A DNA stretch of 64,000 nucleotides from Eledone cirrhosa (Eukaryota), in assembly GCA_964016885.1 (NCBI GenBank), contig OZ024746.1, positions 95,294,001 to 95,358,000 of the forward strand, read 5' to 3'. This document shows, piece by piece, positions 2,915 to 53,785 of this stretch. Position 1 is the stretch's first letter; each line of letters opens with the position of its first letter. A program made the position numbers and the translations under genes. A model generated the notes under the pieces. The model did not search any database and was not told the origin of the DNA. It saw only the letters and a program-made list of their open reading frames with translations.

Positions 2915-3085
2915 GATATTCGATGACATCACATTTGTTTGATAAGGAAGTAACTTGTTGACAACTGTGACCCAGATATTCCACAGTGTTATTTAGAGAA
3001 AACCCGAAACGGATGTGAACAGAAAGGAGGGCGCTGACTGAAGTTAAATAGAAAACTCGTTTTATTTTAAATCTGTTACACAGTC
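2915..3085 (+). promoter_or_regulatory. Putative MyD88 proximal promoter/5'UTR
   Basis: Non-repetitive stretch directly upstream of the ATG, with TGACATCA (CRE/AP-1-like), AGGAAGT (ETS-like) and GAAAACCCGAAAC (imperfect IRF-like). These are motif matches only; the TSS cannot be determined. Confidence 0.3.
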
Positions 3086-3446
3086 ATGGCTACTGAACAT
3101 AGTGAGGCCTCGAAAAAAATATTCAACTGGACTGAAGCTCAATGTAATTATCCATTTCAAAGCGTCTTACGTGTGTCCTCTAGGAAACAACTTGCCAGAC
3201 ATCTAAACATAAAATGTGAAACTCTTTGCAATAACGGACAATGTCCTGACTTTCGTGGTTTAGCAGAAATGGTTGGCTTCGATTATCTTGATGTTAAACA
3301 GTTTGAAACGAATGCTGACCCAATTGCAATTTTGTTGGACTCGTGGAATTCTTCTTTCCATAAAACTGCCACGATGGGAAACTTGTGTTATTTTTTAGAC
3401 TATTTAGGACGCGCTGACTGTCTTTGCGACTGTCAGAAATGTTTTC
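3086..3446 (+). CDS. MyD88: MyD88 exon 1 (death domain)
   Basis: ATG at 3086. DFRGLAEMVGFDYLDVKQFETNADPIAILLDSW...ATMGNLCYFLDYLGRAD resembles the MyD88 death domain (human, from memory: [33 protein letters not shown]). Donor C|GTAAGT at 3447, phase 1. Confidence 0.93.
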
Positions 3447-4405
3447 GTAAGTTTAATAAGATATTTATATCTCTCTCTCTCTCTTTTATTTTTGTTATGG
3501 TGTTGGCTTGTCTCAAAAATTACTCAAGGGACACTCCATCTCATCTTGTGACGTGTCTTCTATCACTTTGTTCTGTCTGTTTTTTTAAATATATACGGTA
3601 TTTATGTGTATGCATTCTACCAAATATTAACACATGGAAAACTAACAACACGTTTTAAAAGTGTATGCTATGGGTAGATAGAATATTTAATCAAATGTAT
3701 TAATTATTTACTTTTGGGTTGAAATCCTAACTGGGATGAATTTTATTTTTTAATTCGCTGACTTTCAATATAAATTATTAGGTATGTGGTCCTATATATA
3801 AATAAGATCGTTAATTTATATATAATAAATAATATATACTATATATAAATAAATATTATATATCTTTTATTTTTTTTATTTTACAATATTTATATATAGC
3901 ATGTATCATTTGAAATTGAATATACTTTTACATCATTTCTACCGTTCCCTTAGGATCTAGCGCCTAAGTCTCTGATAAAATTCAAATAACAGTTAAGTAA
4001 CGTACTCTATATTCCTATAATTGTTTCTACTTTTGGCACAAGGCCAGCAAATACCCAGTGCATTACTGGTACTTTATTTTATCGACCCCGTAAGGATGAA
4101 AGGCAAAGTTAACCTCGGCGCGATTTGAACTCAGAATGCCAAGGGCCGTAACTCTATGCGTCAAAGCATTGCGGCCGACTCTACTAATACTGCCAAACCA
4201 CCGGATTATAAGAATAGTTGTTTCTACTTTTGGCACAAGGCCAGCAATTATACCAGGGTATTACTGGTATAATAATTAAAAATACACTAGCTGGATATGT
4301 CGGGCTTCGAACTCAGTATGTACAAATATAAAACTAAAGCCTATAATGTTTTTGCTTATCTTCTTCACGGCCATAATACAGGGTGTGTCATAAGTTACAG
4401 GAGGG

Positions 4406-16800: not shown

Positions 16801-18065
16801 GGGTTTTTAGAATAATGTTACTCGATAAAGTGCATAACTCGGAGATCATGGTGTCACTCCAGATAAAGCTGCTTCTTCTCTAAGACATCACAACTCCGAT
16901 AGTACAGGCATGTGGTTAGAATGTATCGTGAAAGAATCACTGGACAGATTTTACAGGCAAATCCAACTGGCAGGAGACCCAGGAGTAGACCCTGAGCAAG
17001 ATGGTTGGATAACATCCATGAGCTTGGCTGGTCTCACTTGGGCATAGCTGCTTCTAACAGGACCTGCTGGAAAGAATATTTGAGGACTTTGGCCCCCATG
17101 ACCCTCTAAGGAATAAGTGGGTGAAGAAGATTTAGAGGGATTTAGTAATATATACCCCTGGCAGTGGAGACTTCTGGTGTCCTTGGCCCTAGGGCTACCT
17201 CCCTACTCACCACCATAGGCGCTGAGCTGGCCAGCCGCAGGTGTGAACCCTGCGAGTTGGGATGGCTTTTCCAGTGCGTCTCCCTTGCCTTCTTCCAAGT
17301 GAACGCCTTCTCCATCCTGTCTGCCGGGGCTGTGGGGGGCCCCATCGCGTAACATTCCATATTTAGGTATCTGTGTTCTCACGTGTAGACACTCGTCCTT
17401 TACCATAGTGTTGTGTCCCTAAACGAAGTTTATTTCCTTTAATAATTACAATGTAATTTGTCTGCAGTATGTATACAATGAGATATGATCAAAATGTAGA
17501 CGTAATGTTTCACAGACCACACATTTAAGAGACTGAAATCCTTACTCATTATTAAGCTGGTATTTGGAACATAACAAAGGTTCTTATGTAAAATTATGAT
17601 GGAAGGTTTTTAGATGAATATAAACACTTTAAAACAAACAGTTTTATATCATAGAAAGTTGAACCAGGGCGGTTTCAAGTGGTGTGTTATGAAAAGTGTT
17701 AAGAGGAATATACTTTTACTCCATGCTTAATGCAGACTGTTTATTTTTAGTATCTGGTTTAAATGAAGCAAACAAGTCAAACCCATCCCTCTTTTTAACT
17801 ACTTGTCGATGAATTCAACTTCAAACACATTCCAAACATGTCCATCTGGTATAGTTTTTAACAAGAGTGTTTTCCTTTTTTTTTTTGTTGTGGGTGGGAT
17901 TATAAGATGCGTGATTTGAAGTAGATTTCACTGCTATTTCTAGCACACTGAACGACCAAATGAGCTTCACACATCTGTTTATAATAGAATCTTTTCTACA
18001 TGTGTGTATGTAGCTTCACACATCTGTTTATAATAGAATCTTTTCTACATGTGTGTATATAGCTT

Positions 18066-18432
18066 TATAGCGAGATTACTGGTTGCATGAATGTAACAAA
18101 ACGAGACAATGTTTGTGTATATAATATTTAATTAACGGTAGATAGAATACTTGACATGTCAAAGATAGATGTTAGAATGAAACAAAGTTAGTAGTTACCG
18201 TTTTGATTGCCAGGCAAATGCGGCTGGCAGAGGGCGCCTGGCTAAGGCCAGGCGCCTGTTGGCCAAATTAATGGCAGAGCCAAATGAGAAGACTCTTCGA
18301 CCTGGTGCCGAAAAGGCAAAAAGAGAGAGGAAGCTCAAAGTTGCTAGCTTTATAGGGCTCTGACCGGAAGTTGCAGAAAGGGTTCCACTTCCCGTCTAGA
18401 TCCCAATCAAAACAAGGGAGACAACCGCTACA
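18066..18432 (-). repeat. 3' LTR
   Basis: Preceded on the - strand by PPT-like GGCGGGAGG (18444..18436). Confidence 0.92.
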
Positions 18433-19521
18433 TAACCTCCCGCCAGAATTTTAGTGTATAAAAATCGAAATGAAAATATGTAGCAAGTTGGCGAGAATGT
18501 TGTAACAGGCATGAAAATTACGACAAAAGAATGTTTGGAAAAATCAATGATAGATATCAAGGTAGCCAACCGCTCTTGGCCAGAGCACGACTGGACATCC
18601 ATCTATCCATCACCCAAAGATACAATGTAATAAAGTAAAAGTAATAGAAGAGCTCAAAGTTCAAAATATAGTTCACAGGTGTGCAATCACATGACAGCTG
18701 GAAAGAAAGTGTGTTCCAGAGAATGAATGCAGGTGGTTTCTGTTCTGTGGTATATCGTGAAATTTCCAACCTCCGAATGGATTTTCTCACAGGAAGAGTG
18801 CTGCAAAAATAAATTCTCTGGCTTTGGTGAAGCTGTGTTGATGTATTGCTGTTGCTGTTATATTGCTGTTGCTGCTGCTGTTGTCTCGCTGAGTGAGCGT
18901 ATTCGGTGTTTAAATTCACAGTAAAAAATTTTTTTTTTAGAAAAAATGAGTTGCGCAAAGTGCTAGAAATAGCAGCCGAAGTTGATGGTCGATGTTGAGA
19001 ATGCGTTGACCTGGAAGGGTCAAGAGGCCAGCGACCAGAGAAATAAGCATTCTTAATAAATGCGCGGTTATCAACGGTAAATTTACATTGTAAATTTATA
19101 AACCGGCAAATAGAAGAATATAGCTTAAGGCTGAAGAATCCTTGGGGGAGAAATGCTATCTCTGGCGTGCGGCTGTCTGTGAGAAGAGACATCTCAGTGA
19201 ATCGAGAATTTATGCTGCCTACACGTGCCAATACAAGGTTGAAAAAAAATATTTCTAACGCGCGAGAAAATGATAGTGCAATTTTGAAAGTGACAATGAT
19301 GAAAAAGAAAGGCTTCAATCAGCATAATTATAGGTGTGAACTTTTGGAGAAAAAACTGCCAGCCGCATTTGCCTGGCAATCAAAACGGTAACTACTAACT
19401 TTGTTTCATTCTAACATCTATCTTTGACATGTCAAGTATTCTATCTACCGTTAATTAAATATTATATACACAAACATTGTCTCGTTTTGTTACATTCATG
19501 CAACCAGTAATCTCGCTATAT

Positions 19522-19553
19522 TGGTGACCCTGACGTGATACGAACACGCAGCC
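19522..19553 (-). pseudogene. Reverse-transcribed 3' fragment (about positions 45-76) of mature tRNA-Trp including CCA
   Basis: - strand GGCTGCGTGTTCGTATCACGTCAGGGTCACCA versus tRNA-Trp GGCTGCGTGTTCGAATCACGTCGGGGTCA(CCA). It differs at A58 (to T) and G67 (to A). Confidence 0.88.
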
Positions 19554-19557
19554 GTTC

Positions 19558-19575
19558 ATCACGTCGGGGTCACCA
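19558..19575 (-). other. Primer-binding site complementary to the 3' 18 nt of tRNA-Trp(CCA)
   Basis: - strand TGGTGACCCCGACGTGAT is the reverse complement of the metazoan tRNA-Trp 3' end ATCACGTCGGGGTCA+CCA. Confidence 0.93.
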
Positions 19576-19576
19576 A

Positions 19577-19943
19577 TATAGCGAGATTACTGGTTGCATG
19601 AATGTAACAAAACGAGACAATGTTTGTGTATATAATATTTAATTAACGGTAGATAGAATACTTGACATGTCAAAGATAGATGTTAGAATGAAACAAAGTT
19701 AGTAGTTACCGTTTTGATTGCCAGGCAAATGCGGCTGGCAGAGGGCGCCTGGCTAAGGCCAGGCGCCTGTTGGCCAAATTAATGGCAGAGCCAAATGAGA
19801 AGACTCTTCGACCTGGTGCCGAAAAGGCAAAAAGAGAGAGGAAGCTCAAAGTTGCTAGCTTTATAGGGCTCTGACCGGAAGTTGCAGAAAGGGTTCCACT
19901 TCCCGTCTAGATCCCAATCAAAACAAGGGAGACAACCGCTACA
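19577..19943 (-). repeat. 5' LTR (TATAAA at 19865..19860, GC hairpin 19744..19767)
   Basis: Direct repeat of 18066..18432; followed on the - strand by the PBS. Confidence 0.92.
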
Positions 19944-22900
19944 GCTTCATACATCTGTTTATAATAGAATCTGTTCTACATGTGTGTATGTAGCTTCACA
20001 CATCTGTTTATAATAGAATCTTTTCTACATGTGTGTATGTAGCTTCATGCATCTGTTTATAATAGAATCTTTTCTACATGTGTGTATGTAGCTTCATACA
20101 TCTGTTTATAATAGAATCTGTTCTACATGTGTGTATGTAGCTTCACACATCTGTTTATAATAGAATCTGTTCTACATGTGTGTGTAGTCTTTTAGCTAAT
20201 TCTAAAGTCTAAAGTCTGCCTCTAGCTAGGAAGCTCATCAGGCCAGTACTTATACCGGTTTCCGTGGCACGAAGTGACTGAGAGTACAAGACTTTTCCTT
20301 GGATAGGAGGTTAGTCCTTCGCAGGGTTAAACACCCTCCAGCTATTGCTGGTACTCATTTTCAGCTGCAACGTGAAATGTGTATGAGAGCGTGTCTGTTT
20401 TTACATCTGTGTTTATGTCTCATAATTTAGCAGATTGGCAACAAAGAGATTGATAAAATAAGCACCAGACTTGAAAAAATTAGAGCGATGCCCCAGCATG
20501 ACCGCTTTCTAGTATCTGCAACCAGTAAAAGTATAAAAGAATATATTTTCTTAAAGTGGGTTCCATAAAGGGTTTGTGGTTTCTGCAAGATAAAGTGTAT
20601 TTTAATAAAATGTAATAAATAAAATCTGTTATATGACTAGAGCGGTGCTCCAGCATGACCACCGTCTAATATCTGTAACCAGTAAAAGTATAAAAGAATA
20701 TATTTTCGTACGATAAAGTATCCTTTAATAATATGTAATAAAAATCTGTTATATGTTGTTTTTTTTATCAATATATCTTTCTTTAAAACAAATTTGTTTC
20801 ATCTAACATCATATTAAAATTAGGGTAGTAAGGATTTTCCATAAATTCTAGGTTTGGGTTCAATATTTCTGGGGAAAATTGTATAAGATTTATATACGAC
20901 AAAAATAAGTTTGGAAACCACTGGTATAGAATATTTGTGTGGTTGTGTGGGAAGATGTTTACATGGGTTGGTTATTTAGGTTTTTTTTTGGTTTTATTAT
21001 GTAAAATGAAATTATATGTTATAGGTGTTTTCTGGTGATTCATTATATAATTGATTTTATACCAATAATCTCTTTTTCTGAAATTATGTGAAAGCGTAAC
21101 TATGTTGATTTACTTCCTATTTCTAACTCTGAACCAATGAGAGCGCTTCCTCATATTTTGTTAAGAAAGCAGCCAGTATTTTCCATAAACCTCACCTTAC
21201 CTCAATTTTTTAACGTTTTATCATTTATAATACTCTATATTTACTATTGTATTTTCACAGTAAAGGCTTTATCTCAACATAATATCAAACCTATGAGATT
21301 TTGATGTTTTTATTTATTTTGAGAACAATACCTTAAATCAGTATGAGCAGCCTGTTGTGGCTGGTTTGAAGAGAAAGAGGTGAGAGAATTCTGACCAGAT
21401 ATGGCCGGTCATCAGGTGTGAGCCTCGCGGGCCAGAATGGCTCTTTTAGAGTGTCTCCCTCACCATCACCCAGGGAAACGCCTTATCTATTCTGTCCACC
21501 AGAGTTGTGGAGTGACCAGAGCATGCCCCCCCCCCCATTTGCTTATAATAGTAAGAGAGGCAGTGACTATACCAACATTGCTGAAGTATTTTCTTCTGTT
21601 AGTCTTCATTTAAGGGTTAAAGTTAACACTGTTTATTCCCAATACCCGTGTTTCACTCACAAAGTTGGCTTAAAAACGATTTATAATTACATAAGTATGA
21701 AAAAAAGAGAGATAAAAACAAAATTAAGTAATGAGAAAAAGGGGAAGGGGTAAAGAAGAGCAGATCTGGTTGTATGGCAAAGTAGAATAAATGAGAAAAA
21801 ATAGGAGGAAAAAATGCAAGGATTCTTGGGCCACAGAAGAAGGGGGGGGGGGTCTGGGTTCTGGGATTAGGGTGGAACATTGGATTATGTAATCCTAGTT
21901 ATACTCTGTGGTGTAGTATGGTTATTATTGAATGAGTTTCTTCAGAGCGAACCTCTGGTTGGTTTGGGCAGCAACAACAACACTATTACCAACAATCAAT
22001 GAGGGAGTCACTTGAAATGCTAGAAATAGCAGCTAAATTTCACTCATATCAAATCCTACTGTTTAAACAAAATATAGATTATGTTTTATTAATTAGATAA
22101 TAATTGTTTCTACTTTTGGCACAAGCCAGCAATTACCCAGTACATTACTGGTACTTTATTTTATCGACCCCGTAAGGATGAAAGGCAAAGTTAACCTCGG
22201 CGGGATTTGAACTCAGAATGCCAAGGGACGTAACTCTTTGCGTCAAGCATGGCGTCCGACCCTCCACTGATACTGCCAATCCACCGAATAATAGGGTGGT
22301 GAATTGGCAGAATCGGTAGAGCGTCAGACACCATGCTTTGCAGCATAGAGTTATGACTATGTTCTGAGTTCAAATCCCACCAGCTTTGCCTTTCATCCTT
22401 ATGGGGTCAATAAAATAAAGCACCAGAATTGTACTGGGGTCGATTTAATTGACTTTCCCCTCCCCCCAATTTACTGGCCTTGTGCCTATAGTAGAAATAA
22501 TTAATTAGATAATCATCATCACCATTTAACATCCATTCCCTGCTATGTAGATCTAAATTGGCTAAAAAAAAAAACAAAGATTAGGAGCCCATGTCTTATG
22601 TACCTTTGATTATGTGCCTTGACCTGGTGTTAACCCTTTTGTTACCACATTTCTAATAAAATATATACTGCACACGATTGCCAAATCATTTTGAAAATAA
22701 TCAAGAATTTTGTGAAATTTTGTAAAATAACAGATTTTCTAATTAACCCTTTAGCATTTACATTACTCTATATTTACTATTATATTTTCACATAATTATC
22801 TCATAATATCGAATCTATGATTTTGATATTATTCATTTTGAGAACAATACCTTAATATCGGTATGAGTGGCCAGTTACAGCTGGTTTGAACAGAAAGAGG

Positions 22901-32349: not shown

Positions 32350-32369
32350 GTAAGTATTTGTTATTTACA

Positions 32370-33805
32370 TTTAGTATTTTATAATATTTAGTATCTTATA
32401 ATATTTAGTATTTTATAATATTTAGTATCTTATAATATTTAGTATTTTATAATATTTAGTATTTTATATTTAGTATCTTATAATATTTAGTATTTTATAA
32501 TATTTAGTATTTTATAATATTTAGTATTTTATATTTAGTATCTTATAATATTTAGTATTTTATAATATTTAGTATTTTATAATATTTAGTATCTTATAAT
32601 ATTTAGTATTTTATAATATTTAGTATTTTATAATATTTAGTATTTTATATTTAGTATCTTATATTTAGTATTTTATAATATTTAGTATTTTATAATATTT
32701 AGTATCTTATAATATTTAGTATTTTATAATATTTAGTATTTTATAATATTTAGTATTTTATAATATTTAGTATCTTATAATATTTAGTATTTTATAATAT
32801 TTAGTATTTTATAATATTTAGTATCTTATAATATTTAGTATTTTATAATATTTAGTATTTTATAATATTTAGTATTTTATAATATTTAGTATCTTATAAT
32901 ATTTAGTATTTTATAATATTTAGTATTTTATAATATTTAGTATTTTATAATATTTAGTATCTTATAATATTTAGTATTTTATAATATTTAGTATCATATA
33001 ATATTTAGTATTTTATATTTAGTATCTTATATTTAGTATTTTATAATATTTAGTATTTTATAATATTTAGTATCTTATAATATTTAGTATTTATAATATT
33101 TAGTATTTTATAATATTTAGTATTTTATAATATTTAGTATTTTATAATATTTAGTATCTTATAATATTTAGTATTTTATAATATTTAGTATTTATAATAT
33201 TTAGTATTTTATAATATTTAGTATTTTATATTTAGTATCTTATAATATTTAGTATTTTATAATATTTAGTATTTTATAATTAGTATTTTATAATATTTAG
33301 TATCTTATAATATTTAGTATTTTATAATATTTAGTATCTTATAATATTTAGTATTTTATAATATTTAGTATTTTATAATATTTAGTATTTTATAATATTT
33401 AGTATCTTATAATATTTAGTATTTTATAATATTTAGTATTTTATAATATTTAGTATTTTATATTTAGTATTTTATATTTAGTATTTTATAATATTTCGTA
33501 TTTTATAATATTTAGTATCTTATAATATTTAGTATTTTATAATATTTAGTATTTTATAATATTTAGTATTTTATAATATTTAGTATTTTATAATATTTAG
33601 TATTTTAAATATTTAGTATCTTATAATATTTAGTATCTTATATTTAATATTTTATAATATTTAGTATCTTATATTTAGTATCTTATATTTAGTATCTTAT
33701 AATATTTAGTATTTTATAATATTTAGTATCTTATAATATTTAGTATCTTATATTTAGTATTTTATAATATTTAGTATTTTATAATATTTAGTATTTTATA
33801 ATATT
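32370..33805. repeat. 17-bp AT-rich satellite (tttagtatYttataata, with 14-bp variants), about 85 copies
   Basis: Direct inspection of periodicity. Confidence 0.97.
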
Positions 33806-36800
33806 ACAACAGTATTACAGTTTAACAACACAGACAATAGTCACAACACTATTACAGTTTAACAACACAGACAATAGTCACAACACTATTACAGTTTAAC
33901 AACACAGACAATAGTCACAACACTATTACAGTTTAACAACACAGACAATAGTCACAACAGTATTATAGTTTAACAACACAGACAATAGTCACAACACTAT
34001 TACAGTTTAACAACACAGACAATAGTCACAACACTATTACAGTTTAACAACACAGACAATAGTCACAACACTATTACAGTTTAACAACACAGACAATAGT
34101 CACAACACTATTACAGTTTAACAACACAGACAATAGTCACAACACTATTACAGTTTAACAACACAAACAATAGTCACAACAGTATTACAGTTTAACAACA
34201 CAGACAATAGTCACAACAGTATTACAGTTTAACAACACAAACAATAGTCACAACAGTATTACAGTTTAACAACACAAACAATAGTCACAACAGTATTACA
34301 GTTTAACAACACAGACAATAGTCACAACACTATTACAGTTTAACAACACAAACAATAGTCACAACACTATTACAGTTTAACAACACAGACAATAGTCACA
34401 ACACTATTACAGTTTAACAACACAAACAATAGTCACAACAGTATTACAGTTTAACAACACAGACAATAGTCACAACACTATTACAGTTTAACAACACAAA
34501 CAATAGTCACAACACTATTACAGTTTAACAACACAAACAATAGTCACAACAGTATTACAGTTTAACAACACAGACAATAGTCACAACACTATTACAGTTT
34601 AACAACACAAACAATAGTCACAACAGTATTACAGTTTAACAACACAGACAATAGTCACAACACTATTACAGTTTAACAACACAAACAATAGTCACAACAC
34701 TATTACAGTTTAACAACACAAACAATAGTCACAACATTATTACAGTTTAACAACACAAACAATAGTCACAACACTATTACAGTTTAACAACACAAACAAT
34801 AGTCACAACACTATTACAGTTTAACAACACAGACAATAGTCACAACACTATTACAGTTTAACAACACAGACAATAGTCACAACACTATTACAGTTTAACA
34901 ACACAGACAATAGTCACAACAGTATTACAGTTTAACAACACAGACAATAGTCACAACACTATTACAGTTTAACAACACAAACAATAGTCACAACACTATT
35001 ACAGTTTAACAACACAAACAATAGTCACAACACTATTACAGTTTAACAACACAAACAATAGTCACAACACTATTACAGGTTAACAACACAGACAATAGTC
35101 ACAACACTATTACAGTTTAACAACACAGACAATAGTCACAACACTATTACAGTTTAACAACACAGACAATAGTCACAACACTATTACAGTTTAACAACAC
35201 AGACAATAGTCACAACACTATTACAGTTTAACAACACAAACAATAGTCACAACAGTATTACAGTTTAACAACACAAACAATAGTCACAACACTATTACAG
35301 TTTAACAACACAAACAATAGTCACAACACTATTACAGTTTAACAACACAAACAATAGTCACAACACTATTACAGTTTAACAACACAAACAATAGTCACAA
35401 CACTATTACAGTTTAACAACACAAACAATAGTCACAACACTATTACAGTTTAACAACACAGACAATAATCACAACACTATTACAGTTTAACAACACAAAC
35501 AATAGTCACAACAGTATTACAGTTTAACAACACAGACAATAGTCACAACACTATTACAGTTTAACAACACAAACAATAGTCACAACAGTATTACAGTTTA
35601 ACAACACAAACAATAGTCACAACAGTATTACAGTTTAACAACACAAACAATAGTCACAACAGTATTACAGTTTAACAACACAGACAATAGTCACAACAGT
35701 ATTACAGTTTAACAACACAGACAATAGTTACAACAGTATTACAGTTTAACAACACAAACAATAGTCACAACACTATTACAGTTTAACAACACAAACAATA
35801 GTCACAACAGTATTACAGTTTAACAACACAAACAATAGTCACAACACTATTACAGTTTAACAACACAAACAATAGTCACAACACTATTACAGTTTAACAA
35901 CACAAACAATAGTCACAACACTATTACAGTTTAACAACACAGACAATAGTCACAACACTATTACAGTTTAACAACACAAACAATAGTCACAACAGTATTA
36001 CAGTTTAACAACACAAACAATAGTCACAACACTATTACAGTTTAACAACACAAACAATAGTCACAACAGTATTACAGTTTAACAACACAAACAATAGTCA
36101 CAACACTATTACAGTTTAACAACACAAACAATAGTCACAACAGTATTACAGTTTAACAACACAAACAATAGTCACAACACTATTACAGTTTAACAACACA
36201 GACAATAGTCACAACAGTATTACAGTTTAACAACACAAACAATAGTCACAACACTATTACAGTTTAACAACACAAACAATAGTCACAACAGTATTACAGT
36301 TTAACAACACAAACAATAGTCACAACACTATTACAGTTTAACAACACAAACAATAGTCACAACAGTATTACAGTTTAACAACACAAACAATAGTCACAAC
36401 ACTATTACAGGTTAACAACACAAACAATAGTCACAACACTATTACAGTTTAACAACACAAACAATAGTCACAACAGTATTACAGTTTAACAACACAAACA
36501 ATAGTCACAACACTATTACAGTTTAACAACACAGACAATAGTCACAACAGTATTACAGTTTAACAACACAAACAATAGTCACAACACTATTACAGTTTAA
36601 CAACACAAACAATAGTCACAACACTATTACAGTTTAACAACACAGACAATAGTCACAACACTATTACAGTTTAACAACACAGACAATAGTCACAACAGTA
36701 TTACAGTTTAACAACACAGACAATAGTCACAACACTATTACAGTTTAACAACACAAACAATAGTCACAACACTATTACAGTTTAACAACACAAACAATAG

Positions 36801-37610
36801 TCACAACACTATTACAGTTTAACAACACAAACAATAGTCACAACACTATTACAGTTTAACAACACAGACAATAGTCACAACACTATTACAGTTTAACAAC
36901 ACAAACAATAGTCACAACACTATTACAGTTTAACAACACAAACAATAGTCACAACACTATTACAGTTTAACAACACAAACAATAGTCACAACACTATTAC
37001 AGTTTAACAACACAGACAATAGTCACAACACTATTACAGTTTAACAACACAAACAATAGTCACAACACTATTACAGTTTAACAACACAAACAATAGTCAC
37101 AACACTATTACAGTTTAACAACACAGACAATAGTCACAACACTATTACAGTTTAACAACACAAACAATAGTCACAACACTATTACAGTTTAACAACACAG
37201 ACAATAGTCACAACACTATTACAGTTTAACAACACAGACAATAGTCACAACACTATTACAGTTTAACAACACAAACAATAGTCACAACACTATTACAGTT
37301 TAACAACACAAACAATAGTCACAACACTATTACAGTTTAACAACACAAACAATAGTCACAACACTATTACAGTTTAACAACACAGACAATAGTCACAACA
37401 TTATTACAGTTTAACAACACAAACAATAGTCACAACACTATTACAGTTTAACAACACAGACAATAGTCACAACACTATTACAGTTTAACAACACAAACAA
37501 TAGTCACAACACTATTACAGTTTAACAACACAGACAATAGTCACAACACTATTACAGTTTAACAACACAAACAATAGTCACAACACTATTACAGTTTAAC
37601 AACACAAACA
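33806..37610. repeat. 37-bp satellite (acaacaStattacagtttaacaacacaRacaatagtc), about 103 copies
   Basis: Direct inspection; two dimorphic positions. Confidence 0.97.
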
Positions 37611-39782: not shown

Positions 39783-40590
39783 CATCGTCATCATCATCAT
39801 TTTACATCCGCCTTTCCCTGCTTGTCACGGTCCTTTGTCATCTCCCCCGTGAGCTTCAGTGATCTGAGCTCTGCTCTCACCACCTCCGCCCATGTTTTTC
39901 TTGGTCTACCCCTACTGCATCTTCCTTCTACTGGGATTTCTTGGCACTTCTTTACCCAGCGGTCATCCTCCATGTGCATCACATGTCCATACCCATGTAG
40001 TCTTCTCTCCCGCACACTACAACTTATCCCTCTCATACACAATTGCTCTCTCAACTCATCTATGCTTAATCGTTCACGTACATACTGTGCATGCTTGCTT
40101 CATTTCTCTCCAGCCATCGCATATCCTCTGCACTTGCTGCCCGTGTCTCACTGCCATGCAGCATCGCACATCTCACACAGGCATCATATAACCGCCCTTT
40201 CATACGTAGGGAGAAACCCTTCTTTGTCAACAGAGGAAGCAGCTCCCTAAACATCTTCCAACCCATCCTTATTCTAGATACTATGGCCTCGGAACATCCC
40301 CCTCCCATGCTAATCTGATCACCTAGGTACCGGAAGCTATCAACCACTTCTATAGAACGTACCTGCATTTGAAAAATGTGTCTATCACTGCGGCTCCTAC
40401 TGTAAAATTTCCCTGTAAATCTACTGCATATGTATTTCTCCCTACCTGTTAGTTTGCCTGCTATCCCGCTACATCTCTTGTGTACCCAAGATTTGCATTG
40501 TGTACATTTTATAGAGTTTATGTCAGCTCCTTTTCTACATATCAAACATGGCCATTTCTCTGACGGAATCAGAGTTTGTACCTCTTTTCT
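39783..40590 (-). mobile_element. RTE LINE 3' fragment (frameshifted), same family as 52381..53680
   Basis: FRYLGDQISMGGGC and RGRPRKTW motifs; (GAT)n tail. Confidence 0.9.
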
Positions 40591-40767
40591 ACTTATGTAT
40601 ATATATAGATAAATATACACGGGAGTGTATGATTGTGTATAGAAGATTATATTAATAAAAGGAATTCCAACTTTGTCTGATTTACTCGTTTTATTTACAA
40701 TCCTTTAAAATGTAAAATGGTATTAGAATGAAATAGTATGGTAGAATGTTAAATGTTAAGTGTTAAT

Positions 40768-51847: not shown

Positions 51848-52162
51848 TGGTATGGTATGGTATGGTCTGGTAACTCCTGACAGAGTTGTAGGGGCACCAC
51901 ATTGACATATGGCGTTTCTTGGGCAGTTTAAGCCTGGTGGAGACCATCCCTCCCCAGGCCTAAGTACAGCAAATTTCTTCCAGAGAAAGGAAGAATCGAC
52001 TCAAGTACTAAAACTGGTACTTTTTTTATCGATCTTAAAAGGATGAAAGGCAAAGTTGACCTCGGCGGGATTTGAACTCAGAGAGCAGAGAGCTGGAATG
52101 AATAGCACAAACCATTCTATTCGATGTTTTAACGACACCATTTACACCAACACATCATGGGT

Positions 52163-52234
52163 GATGTGTTGGTGTAAATGGTAGCACAGTGGTCCGGATA
52201 ACCAAAGATGTGGGTTCGACTCCCATGTACGTCA
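52163..52234 (+). pseudogene. tRNA-like sequence (pseudo-tRNA or SINE head)
   Basis: Foldable cloverleaf with A box TGGTGTAAATGG and B box GGTTCGACTCC, followed by a T5 run. Several G-U pairs in the acceptor stem and no U33, so unlikely to be a functional tRNA. Confidence 0.6.
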
Positions 52235-52380
52235 ATACTCATCTTTTTCCATTTCTCCGAGGGTTCTTAACCCCACTATCAGGCTAAATAATTTCTTTAA
52301 TTGCCTTAGTCAAAATACGGCGATTTCTAATAATCTCAAATCAACTCGTTGTTTCGAAAATATTCTTACTATATATATAT

Positions 52381-53680
52381 CATCATCATCATCATCATTT
52401 TACGTCCGCTTTTCCCTGCTTGCAAGGGTGGGACGGGTCTTATTCAGCACAGCATCTCTCCACTCGTCACGGTCCCTCATCATCTCCACCGTGAGCTTCA
52501 ATGATCTGAGGTCTGTTCTCACCACCTCCGCCCATGTTTTTCGTGGTCTACCTCTACCACGTCTTCCTTCAACTGGCATTTCCTGGCACTTCTTCACCCA
52601 TCGGTCATCCTCCATGCGCATCACATGTCCATACCACCTCAGTCTCCTCTCCCGTACACTACATTCTATCCCTCTCAGACACAGTTTCTCTCTCAACACA
52701 TTTATGCTGGGTCGTTCTCGCACATTTACACTGCACATCCAACGGAGCATGCTTGCCTCATTTCTCTCCAGCCGTCGCATATCTTCTGCGGTTGCTGCCC
52801 ATGTCTCACTACCATGCAGCATCGCGCTCCTCACACAGGCATCATACAACCGGCCTTTCGTACGCAGGGAGAAACCCTTCTTCATCAACAGAGGAAGCAG
52901 CTCCCTAAACTTCTTCCAACCCGTCCTTATTCTAGATACTATGGCCTCGGAACACCCTCCTCCCATGCTAATCTGATCTCCTAAGTACCGGAAGCTATCC
53001 ACCACTTCTATAGCGCCCTCTCGCATTTGAAAAATGTGTCTATCAGTGCGACTTCTACTGTCTAATTTCCCTGTACATCTACTGCATACATATTTCTCCC
53101 TACCTGTTAGTTTGCCTGCTATCCCGCTACATCTCTTGTGTACCCAGGACCTACATTGTGTGCATTTTATAGAATTTATGCCAGTTCCTTTTCTGCATAT
53201 CGAACATGGCCATTTCCCTGACGGAATCAGGGTTTTGTCCTCTTTTATACTCATCAACACTTTTGTCTTAGCTAGATTTACTCTCAGTCCTCTTGCTTCC
53301 AACTGCTGTTTCCATAGCCGGAATTTATTCTCTAGCTCCTCTACTGATTCTGCCATAAGAGCCAGATCGTCAGCATAGAGAAGTTCCCATGGACAGCCAG
53401 TCTTAAACTCCTCTGTTATGGCTTGGAGGACTATAATGAACAAGAGCGGGCTGAGGACCGAACCCTGATGTACTCCTACTTGTATCTGGAATTCCTCACT
53501 AAACTCCATTCCTACCCTGACTTTACTGAGAGTACCTCTGTACAAAGTTTGCACTGTCCTTACAAGCCATTCCTCAACACCCAGCTTCCTTAGGGACCAC
53601 CAGATGACAGATCGGGGTACCCTATCAAAGGCCTTCTCTAGGTCAACAAAGGCTAAGTATAGTGGCTTATTCTTCTCTAA
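52381..53680 (-). mobile_element. 5'-truncated RTE-clade LINE, young copy with an open RT C-terminal frame
   Basis: AFVDLEKAFDRV, GVHQGSVLSPLLF, LLYADDL, RERRLRWYGHV and RGRPRKTW motifs; ORF 52400..53554; (GAT)n 3' tail; flanked by (TA)n. Confidence 0.93.
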
Positions 53681-53785
53681 GAAGAATAAGCCACTATACT
53701 TAGCCTTTGTTGACCTAGAGAAGGCCTATATATATATATAGTGACGAAACATAAGTCAATTGCATGAACTCATAATCCTTTATTT

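What the first reader, a model, noticed from the sequence alone, without database searches (positions are those of the whole stretch)
18066..19943. LTR element carrying a built-in DNA copy of its own tRNA primer plus strong-stop cDNA (184-bp hairpin over the PBS)
Seen, in element orientation (- strand): 5'LTR, PBS(Trp), GAAC, 32 nt of tRNA-Trp 3' end with CCA, 165 nt of antisense LTR 3' end, 923 nt non-coding, PPT, 3'LTR. The LTRs look identical and the GCTT TSD is clean, so an integrase inserted it recently. Established: tRNA joined to antisense U5/R is the structure of the minus-strand strong-stop intermediate of LTR reverse transcription. Inference, two models. (a) A non-autonomous family whose transcript folds back and supplies its own pre-annealed primer, a tRNA-mimic form of self-priming conceptually like Tf1. 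(b) A one-off fossil in which the growing minus strand switched onto a stalled tRNA-cDNA intermediate and then onto plus strong-stop DNA, deleting gag-pol. I do not know of a described family with this architecture.
Basis: partly seen in the sequence, partly recalled or inferred. Interest (0 to 1): 0.9.

Follow-up and report, generated by a model that had tools for sequence, protein, structure and literature searches.

The report
Retrotransposon misprimed by its DNA by-product
This is a one-off, rearranged copy of a common protein-less jumping gene whose central hairpin was likely made when a leftover DNA piece from the copying reaction stood in for the normal tRNA primer; the same join occurs at ten places in this genome, which suggests a built-in weak spot rather than a new self-priming family.

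Summary
The anatomy is as described; the interpretation changes. The element belongs to a non-autonomous CsRn1-type LTR family (456 motif matches) whose ordinary copies already carry a 40-nt long primer-binding site. The 'tRNA copy' is that site read backwards: it has the family's two differences from host tRNA-Trp. No gag-pol was lost, only about 450 non-coding nt.

This copy is unique, so a self-priming family is not supported. But its central join recurs 14 times at 10 loci, 7 with clean 4-bp duplications, with LTRs of three families including the likely helper; one origin is rejected. The 18-nt PBS side is tRNA-type and ends at the m1A58 stop, unlike ordinary copies (1 of 30). The join sits on the element's best predicted annealing site.

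Best reading: dead-end plus-strand strong-stop DNA likely misprimed on the family's RNA and was integrated. No raw read across the junctions was obtained. The scan had not noted this join before; one note describes stacked primer sites in a related element. New variant of a known kind of reverse-transcription error.

The parts
19944..19947 (.). Target-site duplication, upstream copy (GCTT on +)
19577..19943 (-). [quoted passage not shown]
   Evidence: role inferred
19744..19767 (-). GC-rich hairpin in the LTR (nt 177-200); the inverted arm ends 2 nt short of it; likely pause site
   Evidence: -28.7 kcal/mol for nt 166-215
19558..19575 (-). 18-nt PBS, perfect complement of host tRNA-Trp 3' end (tRNA-type; 1 of 30 ordinary copies is)
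19521..19560 (+).
19356..19520 (+). Inverted copy of LTR nt 203-367, identical to the LTRs
19349..19357 (-). Junction 2: jump into the U-tract of the internal region; unique in the assembly
18433..19355 (-). 3' 923 nt of the family's non-coding internal region (up to 98.6% to ordinary copies)
18648..19128 (-). Stretch shared (85%) with the 3' UTR of autonomous family B, the likely helper
18433..18444 (-). Polypurine tract
18066..18432 (-). 3' LTR, identical to the 5' LTR
18062..18065 (.). Target-site duplication, downstream copy

Best explanation
This is a single integrated copy of a non-autonomous CsRn1-type LTR family, rearranged likely during reverse transcription when plus-strand strong-stop DNA (LTR plus 18 nt copied from the tRNA primer) is inferred to have annealed to a partly complementary site 20 nt behind the PBS and primed synthesis there in place of tRNA. 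Steps. (1, shown) Ordinary copies carry a 40-nt long PBS followed by a stretch that can pair with the PBS. (2, inferred from Ty1/Ty3 biology and the 1-of-30 count) The first strong-stop DNA, bearing the tRNA copy, is normally a dead-end by-product. (3, inferred; site predicted) Its 3' end paired with the decoy on a plus-sense template, likely the RNA, and was extended backwards through the long PBS and U5/R. (4, inferred) Synthesis stalled before the LTR's GC hairpin at nt 203 and jumped to a minus strand stalled in the U-tract. (5, shown by the TSD and identical LTRs) The finished DNA was inserted recently. At other loci the same priming went further and captured almost the whole strong-stop DNA of the helper or of the family itself.
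For: Same join 14 times at 10 loci, control pattern 0; partner LTR is family A at 4 loci, B at 4, a third type at 2. 7 of 10 loci have exact 4-bp duplications. Junction copies scatter among ordinary ones: 8 changes for 10 rows from 8 loci, one clade rejected, p-AU 0.0003. The PBS side stops at nt 18, where plus-strand synthesis stops at m1A58 (PMC8599865, passages). It is fully tRNA-type at 4 of 4 A-sided loci against 1 of 30 ordinary copies, Fisher p 1.1e-4; the search pattern did not cover the diagnostic letters. The junction site ranks first of 463-465 scanned sites in each of 3 ordinary copies, -16.0 kcal/mol, next anchored site -10.6. Ty1/Ty3 do not inherit the primer sequence and accumulate dead-end strong-stop DNA (PMC5371799, passages). 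RNA template: locus L059 has 7 A>G changes in 41 nt of this arm, absent from its other LTR copies and found at no other place by the edited pattern; in L058 the arm runs on through the LTR into PPT and internal sequence, as after a first strand transfer. Co-packaging with B: L126 has B LTR sequence at the 5' PBS and A internal part and 3' LTR. L145 lands in the same U-tract.
Against: No raw read across either junction. The decoy is only moderately strong: 9 of 100 resampled sequences had an equally good site, and energies use RNA-RNA parameters for a DNA-RNA hybrid. For the window alone the two PBS copies differ at one position, a CpG, which decay could also explain. The arm shares a change private to this copy's LTRs (nt 214), so its U5 part may have been read from strong-stop DNA and not from RNA. 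3 of 10 loci have no exact TSD shown (one mismatched, two not delimited). The short tree has many weak branches; starred branches force only 4 changes.
Confidence: 0.8

Rival explanations
1. An ordinary inserted copy was rearranged later by a DNA-replication template switch at the PBS hairpin (inverted duplication with deletion).
For: The arm is identical to the LTRs including a private change; both junctions have 2-3 nt microhomology.
Against: Cannot give the 6 loci where the partner is another family's LTR; does not explain the exact stop at nt 18, the tRNA-type PBS or the A>G cluster in L059.
Confidence: 0.07
2. One reading: the minus strand switched onto a tRNA-cDNA intermediate and copied the tRNA itself, deleting gag-pol.
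For: 30 of 32 nt match the tRNA-Trp 3' end with CCA.
Against: Both mismatches and the flanking GAAC are the family's own; the parent family has no gag-pol, and the lost piece is about 450 non-coding nt.
Confidence: 0.04
3. Assembly or long-read fold-back artefact.
For: Near-perfect 184-bp palindrome; no bridging read obtained.
Against: The loop is asymmetric, the sequence returns to the forward strand and closes on a TSD, and the same join occurs with other families' LTRs at other loci.
Confidence: 0.04
4. One reading: a non-autonomous family that self-primes with a built-in tRNA mimic.
For: The central join recurs; the transcript would fold over its PBS.
Against: Junction 2 occurs once; the LTR variant occurs only in this element's two LTRs; the 10 loci differ in layout and do not form a clade; no free 3' end at the CCA; Tf1-type priming needs pairing with the RNA's first nucleotides (PMC5445492, passage).
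Confidence: 0.02

Closest known systems
CsRn1 clade of Ty3/Gypsy LTR retrotransposons (CsRn1, PwRn1, AgCR; PMC2582038 and PMC3630058, passages read)
   Same: Trp PBS, 4-bp TSD, modified LTR ends; the likely helper B has CHCC Gag, RT-RH-IN order and GPY.
   Different: The window's family encodes nothing, has a 40-nt PBS with mismatches and a pairing stretch behind it.
Dead-end plus-strand strong-stop DNA of Ty1/Ty3 (PMC5371799 and PMC7472051, passages; the Lauermann and Boeke originals were not read)
   Same: Primer sequence rarely inherited in ordinary copies; tRNA-type PBS turns up in aberrant products.
   Different: Here the by-product appears to be reused as a primer at a fixed site and integrated; I found no such report.
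Aberrant strand-transfer products of retroviruses (deleted, inverted, asymmetric-LTR HIV-1 proviruses, PMC9278108 passages; Pulsinelli and Temin, recalled, not retrieved)
   Same: Non-homologous template switches at homopolymers and hairpins; strong-stop DNA moving between co-packaged genomes.
   Different: One recurring junction, antisense extension from the PBS end, and capture across families.
Helenus TRIMs (PMC10886601, parts 1-3 of 6 read)
   Same: Non-autonomous LTR elements holding tRNA-like sequence.
   Different: Helenus has it in the LTR as a Pol III promoter, not complementary to the PBS; here it is internal, PBS-derived and in one copy.
Tf1 self-priming and the conserved hairpin site of fungal GalEa (PMC5445492, passages)
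   Same: A hairpin at the PBS position.
   Different: Those are family-wide and replace a tRNA PBS; this family keeps its Trp PBS and the long hairpin is not inherited.

Membership tests
CsRn1 clade (window's family A as non-autonomous dependant) | PBS complementary to tRNA-Trp | tested here: met
   18 of 18 against host tRNA-Trp gene plus CCA
CsRn1 clade (window's family A as non-autonomous dependant) | 4-bp target-site duplication | tested here: met
   window and 6 other loci
CsRn1 clade (window's family A as non-autonomous dependant) | CHCC Gag motif, GPY integrase, RT-RH-IN order in the element itself | tested here: not met
   no coding capacity; so it is filed as a dependant, not a full member
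CsRn1 clade (helper family B) | CHCC Gag motif, GPY integrase, RT-RH-IN order, Trp PBS, 4-bp TSD | tested here: met
   one copy, L124
CsRn1 clade (helper family B) | RT phylogeny with named CsRn1 members | not tested
   no reference sequences fetched
Non-autonomous partner of B | Shared cis sequence and recombinants with the helper | tested here: met
   3' UTR shared at 85-92%; A/B chimeras L126, L137, L145 and 4 junction loci
Self-priming elements (Tf1 type) | Priming structure inherited by the family's copies | tested here: not met
   junction 2 single; 30 of 30 sampled copies lack the hairpin join
Self-priming elements (Tf1 type) | cDNA synthesis without tRNA | not testable with these tools
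   needs an in vitro assay
Helenus / TRIMp3 | tRNA-derived sequence inside both LTRs, element under about 1 kb | tested here: not met
   tRNA-like piece is internal; element 1878 nt; ARAGORN finds no tRNA there
Product primed by plus-strand strong-stop DNA | LTR plus exactly 18 tRNA-type nt on one side of the join | tested here: met
   14 of 14 joins break after nt 18 (required by the pattern) and carry the tRNA-type letter at nt 10 (not required); 13 of 14 perfect
Product primed by plus-strand strong-stop DNA | Template of the antisense arm is RNA | tested here: inconclusive
   A>G cluster in L059 and run-on in L058 favour RNA; the window itself does not decide

The most novel reading that the evidence does not exclude
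A parasitic LTR family carries a PBS-shielding stretch that traps dead-end plus-strand strong-stop DNA, including its helper's, and uses it as a tRNA-free DNA primer: a second, DNA-primed route into retrotransposition that yields about 2% of the family's insertions (10 loci against 456 motif matches) and 6 of 37 of the helper's LTR-PBS junctions. The long, mismatched PBS and its hairpin may be a selected device, for example against 3' tRNA fragments, with the window's hairpin as its footprint.
Probability: 0.3. Interest if true: 0.7.

Novelty: new variant of a known kind. Interest (0 to 1): 0.48.

Why it matters
It gives genomic, in vivo evidence that the Ty1/Ty3-style dead-end strong-stop DNA exists in an animal Gypsy clade and can re-enter the cycle as a primer, at a site that can be predicted from sequence. 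It shows how a non-autonomous family and its helper exchange LTRs and how PBS hairpins and long PBSs arise. It also warns that a 'tRNA copy' beside a PBS need not mean self-priming. The window copy itself is most likely a dead end.

Tried and rejected
Reads: 17 runs listed, no RNA holder listed. Laying 4 of them on 17900-20100 showed only short repeat-collapsed pieces and no listed record bridging either junction; uninformative. A junction-only read test could not be completed, so read support stays open.

The 253-codon open frame: no Pfam family, open in 0 of 33 other copies; rejected as a gene.

Descent of all junction copies from one event: rejected (L032, L039, L043 and L044 left out because their arms are too short).

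Sister or daughter copies of the window's LTR variant: none.

Decoy strength as a stand-alone signal: not significant against resampled sequence, 9 of 100; only its rank within the element is used.

Literature: 10 searches found no description of this join or of strong-stop-primed genomic copies. The library lacks most subscription and pre-2000 papers; two older originals could not be retrieved; supplements were not read, and the PBS alignment of PMC2582038 is a supplementary image that may show long PBSs.

Earlier scan notes by sequence and by words: nothing.

Full report
OBSERVATION. The window lies in a 3.0-Gb genome, G000, at C6:95294001-95358000. On the - strand, 19577-19943 and 18066-18432 are identical 367-nt LTRs with a 4-bp duplication, inside a 49-bp array. 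Behind the 5' LTR come an 18-nt Trp PBS, 37 nt reading as tRNA-Trp sense, 165 nt of inverted LTR (nt 203-367), 923 nt of internal sequence, a PPT and the 3' LTR. The 184-nt inverted repeat is real in the assembly and far beyond chance (z -14.8 for the central 101 nt). A 253-codon open frame in the internal part is not a gene.

THE FAMILY. A search with the junction region gave 1440 candidates, 40 scored. Of the 30 loci fetched, 2 were the window, 2 one other hairpin locus and 26 ordinary copies. An ordinary copy (family A, L010) is about 2.1 kb and non-coding: LTR, 40-nt long PBS, about 1345 nt, PPT, LTR. A 19-nt motif of the long PBS matches 456 places; the first 30 along contig 1 all continue in the ordinary way. 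Host tRNA-Trp genes were read from 4 of 6 stretches fetched. The window's 'tRNA' piece differs from them at positions 58 and 67 but matches an ordinary copy's long PBS at 40 of 40. So it is the family's own PBS copied backwards. Against L010 the window has lost about 450 non-coding nt, not gag-pol.

THE HELPER. Family B is a 6-kb element with Gag (277 aa, CHCC motif), Pol (1051 aa; RT, RNase H, integrase, GPY), an 18-nt Trp PBS and a 4-bp TSD (motifs checked in one copy). These are the CsRn1-clade marks (PMC2582038, PMC3630058; passages). Its 3' UTR shares about 480 nt with A at 85-92%. L126 joins B LTR sequence to A's long PBS, internal part and 3' LTR, which implies reverse transcription in the same particle (inference).

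UNIQUE COPY, RECURRENT JOIN. Junction 2 occurs once and the window's LTR variant only in its own two LTRs. Junction 1 occurs 14 times at 10 loci, control pattern 0. The LTR on the 18-nt side is A at 4 loci, B at 4 and a third type at 2. Seven loci have exact, different 4-bp duplications; L060 matches 3 of 4 letters; L056 and L057 were not delimited. Layouts differ. In L052, L051 and L059 an A element carries a nearly whole LTR plus 18-nt PBS in antisense behind its long PBS. In L058 a B LTR plus PBS is followed by antisense long PBS, whole A LTR, PPT and internal sequence. A tree of 52 ordinary and 10 junction rows (8 loci; 4 short-armed hits left out) needs 8 changes, at least 4 forced by well-supported branches, and rejects one clade at p-AU 0.0003.

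WHICH INTERMEDIATE. Plus-strand synthesis stops after 18 nt of the primer, before m1A58 (PMC8599865, passages). The 18-nt side carries the tRNA-type letter at nt 10 in 14 of 14 joins and is perfect in 13. At A-sided loci it is perfect in 4 of 4, against 1 of 30 ordinary copies (p 1.1e-4). That 29 of 30 ordinary copies keep a mismatched PBS fits Ty1/Ty3, where the primer sequence is not inherited and the first strong-stop DNA accumulates as a dead end (PMC5371799, PMC7472051; passages). The 18-nt side is therefore best read as plus-strand strong-stop DNA.

WHY THIS SITE. Scanning the 18-nt PBS against the plus strand of three ordinary copies puts the junction site first of 463-465 sites (-16.0 kcal/mol; next 3'-anchored site -10.6). 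In the RNA the same stretch is predicted to fold back on the PBS (-21.1). Against this: 9 of 100 resampled sequences hold an equally good site, B's best is -14.0, and RNA-RNA parameters were used. The point is the coincidence of join and top rank, not the absolute energy.

TEMPLATE AND SECOND JUMP. In L059 the arm has 7 A>G changes in 41 nt that its other two LTR copies lack, and the edited pattern occurs only there; this points to an edited RNA template. In the window the arm ends 2 nt before a GC hairpin and resumes in a long U-tract, where L145 also lands; hairpins and homopolymers favour RT dissociation (PMC10986323, passage). The arm shares a change private to this copy, so part of it may have been read from DNA. 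The order of events is inferred, not shown.

WIDER PATTERN. Of 37 B LTR-PBS junctions, 24 are ordinary, 1 unclear, 6 this join, 1 a regular A chimera and 5 other mis-transfers (the C28 hit was read). Other families have 28-40 nt of tRNA complement. A's long PBS is followed by what resembles a duplicated LTR end and a dead PBS, as in L147, so A probably arose from an older read-through event; misincorporation at m1A is a known RT signature (PMC4787781, passages), but the A at position 58 is not proven to be one. An earlier scan note, e1-9554435, describes stacked primer junctions in a CsRn1-type element of this genome; it is an unchecked note that agrees with this.

LIMITS. No read bridges the junctions in what I could see, no expression data, no relatives. 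Counts come from exact or one-mismatch patterns and are lower bounds.

VERDICT. Real, young, and most likely a dead-end product of strong-stop mispriming at a recurring, sequence-defined site (0.8). Self-priming family 0.02, direct tRNA capture 0.04, DNA-level fold-back 0.07, artefact 0.04. Aberrant strand transfer is a known kind of event; a fixed site that recruits the helper's strong-stop DNA as primer was not found in 10 literature searches, within a library that lacks most older papers. New variant of a known kind; interest 0.48.

Noticed in passing
L005-L030, L062-L091 (ordinary family A, just behind the 5' LTR): The 40-nt long PBS is followed by what looks like a duplicated LTR end and a dead second PBS, so the family itself may descend from a read-through of the primer tRNA and a mis-transfer. 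L147 shows the same layout in another family.
   Followed up: partly
L045-L050, L097, L098, L158, L181, L187: Other Trp-primed families, some with gag-pol remains, also carry 28-40 nt of tRNA-Trp complement instead of 18; family B has 18.
   Followed up: partly
L059:4963-5003 (G000:C2:372.13 Mb): 7 A>G changes in 41 nt of U5 end and long PBS, in one arm only: looks like ADAR-edited RNA fixed in DNA. ADAR-type changes in retroviral LTRs and inverted repeats are reported (PMC12925331, passage). Earlier scan notes call the host a probable octopod; not tested here.
   Followed up: partly
L104, L117, L137, L138, L145, L150, L152, L155: Further aberrant plus-strand transfers: LTR plus all or part of the PBS joined directly to pol, to internal sequence or to the LTR start. 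12 of 37 family-B LTR-PBS junctions are chimeric or aberrant, 24 ordinary, 1 unclear.
   Followed up: partly
L060:4649-5625: Three tandem 325-nt LTR units joined through the 18-nt PBS and about 10 nt of the inverted long PBS; flanks match at 3 of 4 letters.
   Followed up: no
window 17963-18065 and 19943-20183; L051, L052, L126, L127: Several of these young insertions sit inside tandem-repeat arrays.
   Followed up: no
window 52162-53725: A tRNA-Ser-like sequence (+) beside a 441-codon frame (-) with RT followed by a PHD finger; another PHD at 40066-40704 (-).
   Followed up: no
window 3071-3658 (+): Death-domain match, probably an exon of a host gene.
   Followed up: no
window 32369-37610: Adjacent satellites: 17 bp x 87 and 37 bp x 103.
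   Followed up: no
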